A stretch of DNA of 62,656 nt, from IMG/VR virus record IMGVR_UViG_637000105_000002. One strand, 5' to 3'. Positions 36,001 to 39,000 of the stretch are shown here, one piece after another (positions within the stretch are counted from its first letter, which is position 1; each line of letters opens with the position of its first letter). A program made the position numbers. The DNA comes from a virus (lineage: Duplodnaviria > Heunggongvirae > Uroviricota > Caudoviricetes).

Positions 36001-39000
36001 CCAGGGGAACCCGATGCCGGTGCCTTACGGGGAAATGCTGGTTGGCTCCCGCCGTATATCCCAGGACATCAGCACCCGTGATGAAGGCGGGGGCGGAAAG
36101 GTCGTGGTTATCGGGCGGCAGGGGTAAAAAGAATAAAAAAATCCCGCAGTGATCGCGGACAGGAACTGCGGGAGAGTTACGAAGATTAAGTGTAAGGAAT
36201 TATTCTTATATCACGACAAAAAAATTAACGCAGAGAAATTATACGCGCCACAGTCAGTTTGTGAAAATGTGAAGATATTCAGAATTTTTATGCCATTACC
36301 GGTTTTAACCAACAGGATTATCGGTGGGCATGAAAGAAAACCCCGGTATCTGCTGATACCGGGGTTTCTCTTTAGCATGGCAGAAATGTGTTTCATGCTT
36401 TTCGGGCGAAGGATATCCGACTTCTGTACGGAATGGCAAGTGGCGGTTAATTTATTCAGGGGAAGGCTGTATGGGAAAAGGTGGCGGTAAGGCACACACG
36501 CCTCGTGAGGCGAAGGATAATCTCAAATCCACGCAGATGATGAGTGTGATTGATGCGATTGGTGAGGGACCGATAGAAGGTCCGGTGAAGGGACTGCAGA
36601 GTATTCTGGTGAACAAAACCCCGCTGACGGACACGGACGGTAATCCCGTGATACACGGTGTGACTGCGGTCTGGCGTGCCGGGGAGCAGGAGCAGACACC
36701 ACCGGAAGGCTTTGAGTCCTCCGGAGCTGAAACCGGACTGGGCGTGGAAGTGACGAAGGCAAAACCGGTGACGCGCACCATTACGTCCGCGAACATTGAC
36801 CGCCTGCGGGTTACCTTCGGGGTGCAGTCACTGGTGCAGACCACGTCAAAGGGCGACCGTAATCCTTCCTCTGTCCGGATTCTGATTCAGTTACAGCGTA
36901 ATGGCCGCTGGGTGACGGAAAAGGATGTCACCATTAACGGCAAGACCACCTCGCAGTTCCTGGCCTCGGTGATTCTGGATAATCTGCCTCCCCGGCCCTT
37001 TAACATCCGGATGGTCAGGGAGACGGCGGACAGCACCACGGACCAGCTGCAGAATAAGACGCTGTGGTCGTCATACACCGAAATCATCGATGTGAAACAG
37101 TGCTACCCGAACACGGCCATTGTGGGGCTGCAGGTGGATGCGGAGCAGTTCGGCGGCCAGCAGATGACGGTGAACTACCATATCCGCGGTCGCATCATCC
37201 AGGTGCCGTCAAACTATGACCCGGAAAAACGCACGTACAGTGGTATCTGGGACGGCAGCCTGAAACCGGCATACAGCAACAACCCGGCCTGGTGTCTGTG
37301 GGACATGCTGACTCACCCGCGCTACGGCATGGGAAAACGTCTGGGGGCGGCGGATGTGGACAAGTGGGCGCTGTATGCCATCGGGCAGTACTGCGACCAG
37401 ACGGTCCCGGATGGTTTCGGGGGGACCGAGCCGCGGATGACCTTTAATGCGTACCTGGCACAACAGCGTAAGGCGTGGGACGTTCTCAGTGATTTCTGCT
37501 CTGCGATGCGCTGTATGCCGGTATGGAACGGCCAGACGCTGATGTTCGTTCAGGACCGTCCGTCGGATGTGGTGTGGCCGTACACCAACAGCGATGTGGT
37601 GGTGGATGATAACGGCGTGGGTTTCCGCTACAGCTTCAGTGCCCTGAAGGACCGGCACACGGCAGTGGAGGTGAATTACACCGACCCGCAGAACGGCTGG
37701 CAGACCTCCACGGAACTGGTGGAAGACCCGGAAGCCATACTGCGCTACGGACGCAACCTGCTGAAGATGGACGCGTTCGGCTGTACCAGCCGCGGTCAGG
37801 CCCACCGTGCCGGGCTGTGGGTGATAAAGACCGAACTGCTGGAAACGCAGACGGTGGATTTCACGCTCGGGTCACAGGGGCTGCGTCACACACCCGGTGA
37901 CATCATTGAAATCTGTGATAACGACTATGCCGGGACCATGACCGGCGGACGTGTCCTGTCCATCGATGCCGCCAGCCGTACCCTGACGCTGGACCGGGAG
38001 GTGACACTGCCGGAGACCGGCACGGCCACTGTTAATCTGATTAACGGCAGCGGTAAGCCGGCGAGCGTGGCCATCACCGCACACCCCGCGCCTGACCGGA
38101 TACAGGTCAGCACCCTGCCGGATGGTGTGGAGACATACGGTGTGTGGGGACTCTCCCTGCCGTCACTGCGTCGTCGCCTGTTCCGCTGTGTCTCCATTCG
38201 GGAAAACACGGACGGCACGTTCGCCATCACGGCGGTGCAGCACGTACCGGAAAAAGAAGCCATTGTGGATAACGGGGCCAGCTTTGAGCCGCAGTCAGGC
38301 AGCCTGAACAGCGTTATCCCACCGGCAGTGCAGCACCTGACGGTGGAGGTGAGTGCAGCTGACGGTCAGTATCTGGCACAGGCGAAATGGGACACGCCGC
38401 GGGTGGTGAAGGGTGTGCGCTTCAGTCTGCGTCTGACCAGCGGAAGCGGAGAAGACAGCCGTCTGGTGAGCACCGCCATCACCGCAGACACGGAGCACCG
38501 TTTCAGTGGTCTGCCGCTGGGGGAATACACCCTGACGGTGCGGGCCATTAACAGCTACGGCCAGCAGGGCGAACCTGCGACCACCACCTTCCGGATTAAC
38601 GCGCCTGCAAAACCCGCCACCATTGAGCTGACGCCGGGGTATTTTCAGATAACGGCGGTCCCGCGTCTTGCGGTGTATGACCCGACGGTACAGTTTGAAT
38701 TCTGGTTCTCAGAAAAACGCATCACGAACACGGCACAGGTGGAAAAATCTGCCCGTTATCTGGGGACCGGCAGTCAGTGGACTGTCCAGGGGAGCCGGAT
38801 TAAGCCGGGGACGGATTTCTGGTTTTACGTGCGAAGCGTCAACCTGGTGGGAAAATCTGCTTTTGTGGAAGCCAGCGGGCAGCCCAGCAATGATGGTGAA
38901 GGGTATCTGGAAATTTTCCGGGGGCTGATAGATGAGACGCTTCTGGGCCAGGCACTGAAAGAGCGCATTGATGCTTCAGCGCTGCGTACGGAGGTCACGC

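What the first reader, a model, noticed from the sequence alone, without database searches (positions are those of the whole stretch)
36127..36471. Terminator-bounded ~340-bp insert between tail genes I and J
In lambda, I and J are adjacent. Here an AT-rich spacer carries a strong minus-strand terminator (36131-36172) and a bidirectional hairpin (36332-36373) enclosing ~160 bp with no convincing ORF. This is the layout of a small independently transcribed unit (sRNA or micro-ORF) inserted into the tail operon.
Basis: partly seen in the sequence, partly recalled or inferred. Interest (0 to 1): 0.4.

Follow-up and report, generated by a model that had tools for sequence, protein, structure and literature searches.

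The report
Prophage small RNA gene (PasB family)

Summary
The I-like ORF ends at 36127 and J starts at 36471, leaving a 343-bp spacer against 60 bp in lambda.

**Left half, about 36131-36290.** This is a complete minus-strand transcription unit:
- a near-consensus sigma-70 promoter (TTCACA-16-TATAAT);
- a roughly 100-nt, largely unstructured body;
- an intrinsic terminator that abuts the I stop codon.

It sits at the same position and in the same orientation as PasB of EPEC E2348/69, an 83-nt RNA shown by Northern blot to be Hfq-dependent. It also matches the Hfq-bound EcOnc22/23/24 of EHEC Sakai. A covariance model built without this allele finds it at 67.8 bits (E about 1e-9).

The window allele is only 69% identical to PasB across the RNA. 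Promoter, terminator, the core motifs (UCCUU, UUAAUCUUC) and a CRP-like palindrome upstream are conserved. The body has been swapped as a cassette between otherwise near-identical prophages, and some phages carry two to four units in tandem.

**Right half, 36291-36470.** This is a separate, almost invariant module holding the second hairpin. A hairpin just upstream of J also occurs in lambda and in the short spacer forms, so it does not bound the sRNA unit.

No ORF in the spacer is supported. Expression of this allele, its targets and its regulation are all inferred. Verdict: a divergent member of a known family, of modest interest.

The parts
35447..36127 (+). gpI-like tail assembly protein gene (upstream neighbour); its stop codon lies 4-8 nt from the 3' end of the sRNA on the other strand
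   Evidence: ORF. PHROG tail assembly families at E 5.5e-79 to 6.9e-87. RefSeq annotation of identical copies.
36132..36232 (-). PasB/EcOnc22-family sRNA gene. The predicted transcript runs from about 36231 to about 36133, roughly 97-100 nt. Transferring the E2348/69 coordinates gives 36216..36135.
   Evidence: CM R2, built without this allele: 67.8 bits, E 8.6e-10, full length, the only significant hit in the window. CM R1: 103 bits. Alignment to the E2348/69 PasB locus. The published Northern probe matches 20 of 23 positions at 36140-36162.
36135..36172 (-). Intrinsic terminator of the sRNA: a 7-8 bp stem CCCGCAG/CUGCGGG, a 14-16 nt loop, then U7
   Evidence: The stem is invariant in 38 distinct alleles.
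36180..36199 (-). Candidate seed region, RNA 5'-UUCCUUACACUUAAUCUUCG-3'. The conserved cores are UCCUU (identical to the end of the 16S anti-SD) and UUAAUCUUC, separated by a hypervariable 4-5 nt patch.
   Evidence: Conservation in A4 and A6. It is single-stranded in the consensus fold. Zhu et al. propose the PasB seed 'just upstream of the terminator'.
36238..36265 (-). Sigma-70-type promoter: -35 TTCACA (36265..36260), a 16-bp spacer and -10 TATAAT (36243..36238)
   Evidence: 11 of 12 matches, the best site in 2.5 kb. The -10 is kept as xATxAT in all alleles, whereas the -35 is not kept in divergent alleles.
36265..36290 (.). Conserved upstream block AAATGTGAAGATATTCAGAATTTTTAT. It contains a CRP-like palindrome TGTGA-N6-TCAGA (36268-36283, centre 36275.5), which is about -44.5 from the predicted start.
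   Evidence: Nearly invariant across alleles that are otherwise 58-76% identical. It is repeated with every unit of tandem arrays, with invariant half-sites and a variable N6. A single-window match is not significant by itself.
36291..36470 (.). 'Long-form' J-proximal module, a separate mosaic segment. It holds stem-loop 36287-36334, the 13-bp hairpin 36338-36367, a small hairpin 36375-36400, a weak minus-strand promoter-like site 36439..36410, and the J Shine-Dalgarno GGGGAAGG at about 36458-36465.
   Evidence: At least 99% identical in 1441 of 1450 E. coli records, with no diverged relatives. Replaced by 79-89 nt 'short forms' in other prophages. Fold z-scores are -2.75 on + and -4.31 on -.
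36338..36367 (.).
   Evidence: Functional counterparts sit just upstream of J in the short forms, where one compensatory C-G to U-A change is seen, and in lambda. A natural deletion variant lacks it (L119).
36471..40163 (+). gpJ tail tip / host specificity protein gene (downstream neighbour)
   Evidence: ORF. RefSeq annotation of identical copies.

Best explanation
**The sRNA cassette (about 36131-36290).** The left part of the I-J spacer is an autonomous 'moron' cassette encoding a trans-acting, Hfq-dependent small RNA of the PasB/EcOnc22-24 family.

- In a lysogen the late operon (+ strand) is silent. Host sigma-70 RNA polymerase starts at the cassette's own promoter (-10 at 36243..36238) and transcribes leftwards, against the late operon.
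- It stops at the intrinsic terminator that abuts the I stop codon, giving an RNA of roughly 85-100 nt.
- The RNA has a 5' U-run, an A-rich (ARN-like) stretch, a single-stranded pyrimidine-rich core (UCCUU...UUAAUCUUC) and a terminator hairpin with a U7 tail. That is the build of an Hfq-binding sRNA.
- The core most likely pairs with purine-rich, Shine-Dalgarno-like sites of host and prophage mRNAs.
- The window carries a divergent allele, 69% identical to E2348/69 PasB. It has the family's promoter, terminator and core motifs but a different body, acquired by recombination within the conserved flanks.
- A conserved palindrome just upstream of the -35 (TGTGA-N6-TCAGA) probably binds a regulator. 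CRP is the best guess.

**The J-proximal module (36291-36470).** This is a different module. Its strong hairpin is the counterpart of the hairpin that lambdoid phages, lambda included, carry just before J. It probably stops non-antiterminated + strand transcription, or shields the sRNA promoter from transcription on the other strand. Q-modified polymerase reads through it in lytic growth.

**Shown versus inferred.**
- Shown here: anatomy, homology, conservation pattern, mosaicism and tandem arrays.
- Shown by others for homologues: expression, size, Hfq dependence and multiple RNA partners.
- Inferred: expression of this allele, the seed, the targets, the regulator and the role of the hairpin.
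For: **Anatomy**
- The promoter matches 11 of 12 positions and the terminator is on the same strand.
- The consensus fold leaves the body unstructured and pairs only the terminator.

**Homology and position**
- PasB of E2348/69 is at NC_011601 1466343..1466261 (-), 83 nt, between E2348C_1436 and 1437. That is the I-J spacer of prophage PP6, 6 nt from the I stop, and it aligns with window 36216..36135.
- The published Northern probe matches 20 of 23 positions.
- The independent CM R2 scores 67.8 bits, E 8.6e-10.
- Sakai Hfq-CRAC peaks EcOnc22/23/24 lie in the I-J spacers of Sp15, Sp14 and Sp11, antisense to the late operon. After a coordinate shift of about +128 nt, calibrated on AgvB, they fall on the body of the PasB-like RNA.
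- EcOnc22 gives a Northern band of about 85 nt and is destabilised in the hfq deletion.
- PasB levels drop in the hfq mutant (log2 -6.8 and -2.4). It has 37 RIL-seq partners and is nearly always RNA2 in chimeras.

**Conservation**
- 38 distinct alleles share GCGUUA, a U-run, an A-rich stretch, UCCnU, UUAAUCUUC and the terminator.
- The upstream block is invariant while the -35 and the body vary.

**Autonomy of the cassette**
- Tandem arrays of 2-4 units occur, each unit with its own block, promoter and terminator.
- Against PPompW the flanks are 95-100% identical but the RNA body only 66%.

**Hairpin upstream of J as a general feature**
- Short forms show one compensatory change, and lambda has such a hairpin.

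**Compatible with catabolite control**
- PasB is higher in LB than in DMEM.
Against: - There are no transcript data for this allele or this strain.
- Rfam has no family for it.
- The annotated PasB 5' end in EPEC is about 15 nt downstream of the start predicted from the -10, so the true 5' end is uncertain.
- No EcOnc peak was called in the Sakai Sp12 spacer, which has the long form and the PasB-2 allele.
- The Sakai mapping relies on a coordinate shift inferred from one landmark and on a remembered genome length.
- No common target motif was reported for PasB in RIL-seq, and EcOnc22 targets are listed as unknown.
- The terminator stem never varies, so there is no covariation support.
- The CRP-like site is centred at about -44.5, not the canonical -41.5 or -61.5. 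A one-mismatch core match occurs by chance in this window (4 found against 2.2 expected).
- No function for the hairpin upstream of J has been tested anywhere that I could find.
Confidence: 0.82

Rival explanations
1. The RNA acts mainly in cis. It is fully complementary to the I-J junction of the late polycistronic mRNA. Its role would be to pair with that mRNA, or to interfere by convergent transcription, tuning I/J expression or late mRNA processing rather than regulating trans targets.
For: The orientation is antisense to the late operon and the position at the I stop codon is fixed in every locus examined. The position is conserved even where the sequence has diverged to 58%.
Against: RIL-seq in EPEC found 37 partners from both core and accessory genomes. 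The RNA is expressed in lysogens, where late mRNA is essentially absent. Tandem arrays of differing alleles make more sense for trans specificity. The two roles are not mutually exclusive.
Confidence: 0.12
2. The spacer makes no functional RNA product. It would be a pair of transcription insulators or terminators, plus decayed DNA left over from recombination between lambdoid phages.
For: Both hairpins look like terminators. Lambdoid phages are mosaic and the J-proximal part exists in alternative forms. The generic scans are not above chance.
Against: Homologues give discrete, Hfq-stabilised bands. Promoter, upstream block, core motifs and terminator are conserved through 38 alleles while the surrounding bases vary. 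Whole units are duplicated in tandem.
Confidence: 0.05
3. The long-form module (36291-36470) encodes a second, undescribed small RNA. One candidate is a minus-strand RNA of about 70 nt, running from the TTGCCA-18-TATCCT promoter-like site (36439..36410) to the hairpin and UUUUCUUUC. The other is a + strand structured leader that controls J translation.
For: - A promoter-like site matching 9 of 12 positions lies upstream of a hairpin with a U-rich tail on the same strand.
- The fold z-score on the minus strand is -4.31.
- The module is almost invariant in 1445 genomes.
- Short colinear motifs are shared with the inter-unit DNA of tandem arrays: TATCGGTGG, GCAGAAATGTG and TTTATTCAsGGGAAGG. This suggests descent from a second unit.
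- The + strand minimum-free-energy fold pairs the J start region.
Against: - Similarity to PasB units is not significant overall (z 0.6-3.9).
- The PasB CM finds no second hit there.
- No Hfq peak was called in the identical Sakai Sp12 spacer.
- The invariance is shared with the adjacent J 5' end and so may simply reflect a young haplotype.
- The rare polymorphisms are not compensatory, and a natural variant lacks the hairpin.
Confidence: 0.15
4. The spacer encodes a small protein. An example is the 66-aa + strand ORF from ATG 36290, which has a hydrophobic stretch ([19 protein letters not shown]).
For: The ORF exists and has a membrane-like segment. Two phage records annotate a CDS over this region.
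Against: It has no Shine-Dalgarno sequence. tblastn finds no homologue other than identical copies. There are no Pfam or PHROG matches. The ORF runs through the hairpin and overlaps J out of frame. In the PasB half, alleles differ by indels that break the frame.
Confidence: 0.03

Closest known systems
PasB of EPEC O127:H6 E2348/69 (Pearl Mizrahi et al. 2021, PMC8550237; Zhu, Shabalina & Storz 2026, bioRxiv 10.64898/2026.05.13.724894)
   Same: - It occupies the same slot, the I-J spacer antisense to the late operon, with its 3' end a few nt from the I stop.
- The promoter region is about 95% identical, the upstream block is the same and the terminator stem is identical.
- It shares the core motifs UCCUU and AUCUUC and has a similar size.
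- It is common in extraintestinal isolates, where it is often the only Pas sRNA.
   Different: - The window allele is only 69% identical over the RNA, with a 5-nt longer terminator loop and a different 5' half and linker.
- Zhu et al. describe PasB variants as differing by 'a few nucleotides'. Their PasB-2 (C27A) is the PPompW/Sp12 allele, so this allele is probably outside their set.
- E2348/69 has the short J-proximal form (240-bp spacer), whereas the window has the long form (343 bp).
EcOnc22/EcOnc23/EcOnc24 of EHEC O157:H7 Sakai, prophages Sp15 (Stx1), Sp14 and Sp11 (Tree et al. 2014, PMC4104026)
   Same: They have the same I-J position, orientation and architecture. They are Hfq-crosslinked, give a Northern band of about 85 nt and are destabilised without Hfq. 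They hit the same CM at 94.7 bits.
   Different: They are 65% identical to the window RNA. The -35 differs, the terminator loop is shorter and the J-proximal form is short. The link between these RNAs and PasB is my inference. I found it in neither paper.
AgvB / AsxR 'anti-sRNAs' of lambdoid prophages (Rfam RF02702, RF02703)
   Same: They are prophage moron sRNAs that bind Hfq, have a conserved 3' part and a variable target-recognition part, exist as allelic series and are convergent with phage genes.
   Different: They sit at a different site, downstream of PR'/Q rather than between I and J. They are shorter (51-60 nt) and share no sequence similarity. The Rfam models do not hit the spacer. 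No sponge activity is known for PasB.
Lambda I-J intergenic hairpin (NC_001416 15445-15504)
   Same: It is a GC-rich hairpin with flanking A and T runs immediately upstream of the J ribosome-binding site. The window's hairpin 36338-36367 and the short-form hairpin are the same kind of feature.
   Different: Lambda has only this 60-bp gap and no sRNA cassette. The stems are unrelated in sequence. I know of no assigned function.
Classical lambdoid morons (lom, bor; Juhala et al. 2000 concept)
   Same: They are autonomous promoter-gene-terminator units inserted between late genes and expressed from the prophage. The window has a lom-like moron right after J (40231-40830).
   Different: The cargo here is a non-coding RNA transcribed against the operon, and the cassette occurs as exchangeable alleles and tandem arrays.

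Membership tests
PasB / EcOnc22-24 prophage sRNA family | Located in the spacer between tail genes I and J of a lambdoid prophage, on the strand opposite the late operon, with its 3' end next to the I stop codon | tested here: met
   Window ORFs and features. The same layout holds in E2348/69 PP6, in Sakai Sp11, Sp14, Sp15 and Sp12 and in 10 phage records.
PasB / EcOnc22-24 prophage sRNA family | Sequence and structure homology to validated members | tested here: met
   CM R2, built only from other alleles: 67.8 bits, E 8.6e-10, full length, unique in the window. The RNA is 69% identical to PasB and 65% to the EcOnc22 type. The Northern probe matches 20 of 23 positions.
PasB / EcOnc22-24 prophage sRNA family | Own sigma-70 promoter and Rho-independent terminator with a U-tail | tested here: met
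   TTCACA-16-TATAAT matches 11 of 12 positions. The terminator is a 7-8 bp GC stem followed by U7. These are predictions from sequence only.
PasB / EcOnc22-24 prophage sRNA family | Expressed as a discrete RNA of about 83-85 nt whose stability depends on Hfq | not testable with these tools
   Shown for homologues only. This allele is unannotated in all RefSeq genomes examined.
PasB / EcOnc22-24 prophage sRNA family | Base-pairs with many trans-encoded mRNAs | not testable with these tools
   RIL-seq found 37 partners for the E2348/69 allele. No seed was defined experimentally, and EcOnc22 targets are listed as unknown.
Any Rfam 15 family | Score at or above the family's gathering threshold | tested here: not met
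   There is no hit in 35900-36700 at gathering level. The best sub-threshold hits (27 bits or less) align only to the hairpins.
AgvB/AsxR anti-sRNA family | 51-60 nt RNA encoded 3' of PR'/moron site, with the conserved 42-nt 3' region | tested here: not met
   The location differs. The RF02702 and RF02703 models do not hit the window spacer, although RF02702 finds AgvB in Sakai.
CRP-activated promoter (class II or class I) | TGTGA-N6-TCACA-like site | tested here: met
   TGTGAAGATATTCAGA at 36268-36283 matches 9 of 10 core positions and 14 of 16 non-spacer positions of the 22-bp consensus. The half-sites are invariant and the N6 spacer varies across alleles and array units.
CRP-activated promoter (class II or class I) | Site centred near -41.5 (class II), or near -61.5 or -71.5 (class I), relative to the transcription start | tested here: not met
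   The centre at 36275.5 lies 35 bp from the centre of the -10, giving about -44.5 for a start at 36231. The true start is unknown, so the claim 'CRP-dependent' stays a hypothesis.
Protein-coding micro-ORF | Conserved reading frame, ribosome-binding site, homologues | tested here: not met
   Frame-breaking indels separate the alleles. tblastn finds no diverged homologue. There is no Pfam or PHROG match.

The most novel reading that the evidence does not exclude
The I-J junction of lambdoid prophages may be a dedicated docking site for a modular sRNA cassette made of a regulator site, a promoter, an exchangeable body and a terminator. Recombination in the conserved flanks would swap the body, and the cassette would be amplified into tandem arrays. 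Prophages would then carry an allelic series of Hfq sRNAs with different target sets under one shared, possibly catabolite-responsive, control. In addition, the invariant 180-bp J-proximal module of this window may be a second, undescribed RNA element: either a decayed or re-purposed sister unit, or a leader controlling J.
Probability: 0.25. Interest if true: 0.55.

Novelty: new member of a known kind. Interest (0 to 1): 0.3.

Why it matters
**Annotation gap.** The cassette is unannotated in every RefSeq genome I looked at. Some form of it is nevertheless present in about 30% of complete E. coli genomes. The window's allele lineage (at least 90% identity in the RNA body) is in about 1260 records, and the exact allele is in about 610. 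These include reference strains such as ATCC 25922 and the neonatal-meningitis strain S88.

**Merging two literatures.** Recognising that PasB (EPEC) and EcOnc22-24 (EHEC) are one family with many alleles joins two separate bodies of work. It enlarges the family well beyond the BLAST-defined 'few-nucleotide' variants.

**Experiments it suggests.** The pattern of conserved promoter, terminator and core against a swapped body points to concrete tests: which motif is the seed, whether alleles differ in their regulon, and whether a CRP-like factor controls them.

**What it does not change.** It does not alter how prophage sRNAs are thought to work.

Tried and rejected
1. **Rfam.** I ran it at gathering threshold on the whole window and at a permissive E-value on 35900-36700. 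Nothing relevant appeared in the spacer. The weak hits (SSRC34_2, STnc310 and others) only mirror hairpin shape.
2. **AgvB/AsxR.** This was my first recollection and it was wrong. Those RNAs lie at the PR' moron site.
3. **Second copy of the long form.** The '2 places per record' reported for the long form is only the palindrome matching itself.
4. **Literature searches.** Full-text searches for the sequence and for 'sRNA + tail assembly + host specificity' returned nothing.
5. **Small protein in the long form.** The 66-aa ORF and the others are rejected.
6. **Long form as a decayed PasB unit.** Only three short colinear motifs are shared. Local alignment scores are not convincingly above dinucleotide shuffles, so this stays a weak idea.
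7. **Covariation.** The terminator stem is invariant, so nothing can be learned from it. Polymorphisms in the long form are too rare and are not compensatory.
8. **Other genera.** The genome-contig scan with the I protein gave only 12 loci. The PasB CM hit only the E. coli-like ones. Enterobacter, Pantoea, Rahnella and Pseudocitrobacter loci (I protein 32-45% identical) had none. I did not analyse what lies in their I-J gaps.
9. **First IMG/VR pattern.** It had too short a gap and found nothing. The corrected pattern found at least 120 loci.
10. **PasB RIL-seq target list.** I did not extract it. The rows are scattered through a large truncated table.
11. **Alternative regulators.** A Cra-type reading of the palindrome (TGAA-N4-TTCA) fits worse than the CRP-type reading, because the first T of the right half varies between units. 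An UP-element reading of the A/T-rich part remains possible.
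Full report
**1. What is in the sequence**

The window's late operon runs on the + strand. A gpI-like ORF ends at 36127 and gpJ starts at 36471. The I product matches PHROG tail-assembly families, and identical copies in RefSeq are annotated 'tail assembly protein' and 'gpJ'. The spacer is 343 bp, against 60 bp in lambda.

- A minus-strand hairpin with arms at 36166-36172 and 36143-36149, followed by seven U (36141..36135).
- A perfect 13-bp hairpin at 36338-36367 with T-rich runs on both sides.

It lies between the two hairpins on the minus strand: TTCACA-16-TATAAT at 36265..36238, matching 11 of 12 positions. Promoter and terminator together define a minus-strand unit of about 100 nt.

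**2. Identification**

Rfam 15 has nothing for the spacer. The literature does.

*PasB in EPEC.* Pearl Mizrahi et al. (PMC8550237) list PasB of EPEC E2348/69 at NC_011601 1466343..1466261 (-), 83 nt, in prophage PP6, with the Northern probe AATCCCGCAGTGATCGCGGAGCT.
- In the current record those coordinates lie in the I-J spacer of PP6, beginning 6 nt after the I stop.
- The locus aligns with the window. The probe matches 36140-36159 exactly and then diverges.
- PasB was confirmed by Northern blot. Its level falls sharply in the hfq mutant. It has 37 RIL-seq partners and is more abundant in LB at 27 C than in DMEM.

*EcOnc22/23/24 in EHEC.* Tree et al. (PMC4104026, Table S2) list the Hfq-CRAC peaks EcOnc22, EcOnc23 and EcOnc24 as homologues of one another. 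EcOnc22 gives a Northern band of about 85 nt and is destabilised without Hfq.
- In NC_002695.2 all three peaks fall in the I-J spacers of Sp15, Sp14 and Sp11, on the strand opposite the late operon and at the same offset from J.
- The paper used older coordinates. Its AgvB1 peak lies about 128-146 nt below the position where the Rfam AgvB model finds the gene in the current record.
- With that shift the EcOnc22 peak covers the body of the PasB-like RNA, from about its start to the terminator. This step is an inference and depends on the shift being the same at 2.2-2.9 Mb.

*My inference.* Neither paper, nor the 2026 preprint of Zhu et al., links PasB to EcOnc22-24 in the text I could search.

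**3. Membership**

A covariance model built only from other alleles finds window 36132-36232 (-) at 67.8 bits, E about 9e-10, over the full model length. The alleles used were PasB, PasB-2, PhiR12_1, WGPS8, the Sp15 type and one IMG/VR type. It is the only significant hit in 62.6 kb.

The RNA is 69% identical to PasB and 65% to the EcOnc22 type. Zhu et al. state that PasB variants differ by a few nucleotides. Their PasB-2 (a change at position 27) is the PPompW/Sp12 allele. The window allele is therefore probably outside their catalogue.

It is common:
- The exact 86-nt body is in 612 records.
- Relatives at 90-99% identity, including those of Stx2c phages of O157:H7, are in about 650 more of the 20,395 records.
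- Nothing is annotated there.

**4. Anatomy of the family**

I compared twelve BLAST-derived spacers and 88 CM hits comprising 38 distinct alleles from IMG/VR, Sakai and E2348/69.

| Element | Behaviour across alleles |
|---|---|
| 5' GCGUUA plus U-run | conserved |
| A-rich stretch | conserved |
| UCCnU | conserved |
| UUAAUCUUC | conserved |
| Terminator CCCGCAG...CUGCGGG-U7 | invariant |
| Remainder of the body, including a 4-5 nt patch between the two pyrimidine motifs | variable |

- The consensus fold pairs only the terminator, so the body is single-stranded.
- UCCUU(A) equals the 3' end of the 16S rRNA anti-Shine-Dalgarno sequence (established knowledge). I therefore infer pairing to SD-like purine tracts.
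- Zhu et al. place the putative seed in the same region from conservation alone.
- The -10 is kept as xATxAT in all alleles. The -35 is lost in divergent alleles.
- The block AAATGTGAA-N5-TCAGA-rTTTTTAT just upstream is nearly invariant.

**5. The cassette is autonomous and mobile**

- Against prophage PPompW the window is 95.8% identical in I, 94.9% in the promoter and block, 100% in the next 180 bp and 97.8% in J. It is only 66% identical in the RNA body. That pattern requires recombination within the conserved promoter and terminator. Faster drift cannot produce it.
- Some viral contigs carry two to four units in tandem in an I-J spacer of up to about 915 bp. Each unit has its own block, promoter and terminator (L076, L066, L071).
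- Across those units the half-sites TGTGA and TCAGA never change while the six bases between them do. This is the signature of a dimeric regulator site.
- It resembles the CRP consensus (14 of 16 non-spacer positions) and fits PasB being higher in LB than in glucose-rich DMEM.
- Two points weigh against this. Its centre is about -44.5 from the predicted start, which is not a canonical CRP position. A core match with one mismatch is also expected by chance in a window this size.
- I rate CRP control at about 0.3. An UP-element contribution or another regulator remains possible.

**6. The right half**

Region 36291-36470 is a distinct mosaic module.
- It is at least 99% identical in 1441 of 1450 E. 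coli records and has no diverged relatives.
- In other prophages, 79-89 nt 'short forms' replace it.
- The short forms carry a + strand hairpin, CAGGCAyCC...GGrTGCCTG followed by TTGTTTTT, with one compensatory C-G to U-A change.
- Lambda's 60-bp gap has its own hairpin, AAACCGCC-TGCG-GGCGGTTTT.

A hairpin directly upstream of J is therefore a general lambdoid feature independent of the sRNA.

I infer that it stops non-antiterminated + strand transcription before J, or shields the sRNA promoter from minus-strand read-in. This has not been tested.

The module folds strongly on both strands (z -2.75 and -4.31). It has a weak minus-strand promoter-like site (36439..36410) upstream of the hairpin, so a second small RNA cannot be excluded. 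Several findings argue against one, or leave the question open:
- The PasB models do not hit it.
- Its similarity to PasB units is limited to three short colinear motifs.
- No Hfq peak was called in the identical Sakai Sp12 spacer.
- Its few polymorphisms are uninformative.

**7. ORFs**

None is credible. Alleles differ by indels that break the reading frame. The 66-aa ORF in the long form lacks a ribosome-binding site and has only identical copies elsewhere. No Pfam or PHROG family matches.

**8. Verdict**

The spacer carries a divergent allele of a known, experimentally detected prophage sRNA family, followed by a separate hairpin-bearing leader of J.

New here, at the level of inference:
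- the equation of PasB with EcOnc22-24;
- the allelic cassette exchange and the tandem arrays;
- the conserved regulator-like palindrome.

Function and targets remain unknown in the literature. Novelty: new member of a known kind. Interest: about 0.3.

Noticed in passing
L076 (IMGVR_UViG_2728369607_000007) 316-1230; also L066 4415-4741 and L071 389-707: These loci hold tandem arrays of two to four PasB-like units in a single I-J spacer, about 915 bp long in L076. Each unit has its own terminator, body, -10 and TGTGA-N6-TCAGA block. One L076 unit (about 740-930) has a different terminator stem (TCTCCCGT...ACGGGAGA). The PasB papers I read do not describe this.
   Followed up: partly
window 4505-4556 (-), 10119-10290 (+), 13554-13677 (+), 14291-14537 (+), 15237-15426 (+): Other RNA genes of the prophage reach Rfam gathering scores: DicF, a hok/sok-type sok, STnc490, three tRNAs, and STnc100. 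Zhu et al. relate STnc100 to PasD. The element therefore carries at least four sRNA loci besides the I-J one.
   Followed up: no
window 40180-40207, 40231-40830, 40935-40971: A lom-like outer-membrane protein moron (199 aa) lies directly after J, bracketed by two + strand terminators. The second terminator (GCCCG...CTGCGGGCTTTTTTTATT) shares an 18-nt stretch with the PasB terminator and gives a weak CM hit (17 bits), which is probably trivial.
   Followed up: partly
L149 (lambda NC_001416) 15445-15504: Lambda's own 60-bp I-J gap contains a hairpin, AAACCGCC-TGCG-GGCGGTTTT. Before it comes CAAAATG/TTTTATG, which resembles the outer edges of the conserved PasB upstream block (GAAAATG...TTTTTATG). 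It looks as if the cassette were absent or excised there. This may be coincidence.
   Followed up: no
L053 4723-6163; L119 3989-4121: Two natural variants of the long-form module turned up. L053 has an insertion of about 1.25 kb near window position 36322. L119 has a clean deletion of the hairpin (36340-36374) between short GAAA repeats.
   Followed up: no
L011 (Stx2a phage Stx2_EH1846) 486-700: Here the PasB-like body and terminator are kept, but the promoter and block are replaced. A sodC gene on the opposite strand follows instead of J. This is a rearranged copy that is probably silent.
   Followed up: no
L017 (Streptomyces flavalbus contig, 3.4 kb), L019 (Parendozoicomonas haliclonae, 460 bp), L025 (Clostridiales MAG, 3.4 kb): Short contigs in assemblies of unrelated organisms encode 91-98% identical gpI plus the PasB-like unit. 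They are almost certainly E. coli prophage contamination in those assemblies.
   Followed up: no
NC_002695.2 versus the coordinates in Tree et al. 2014, Table S2: The published EcOnc coordinates are offset by roughly +128 to +146 nt from the current Sakai record at 1.94 Mb, using AgvB1 as the landmark. Anyone reusing that table needs to lift the coordinates over.
   Followed up: partly
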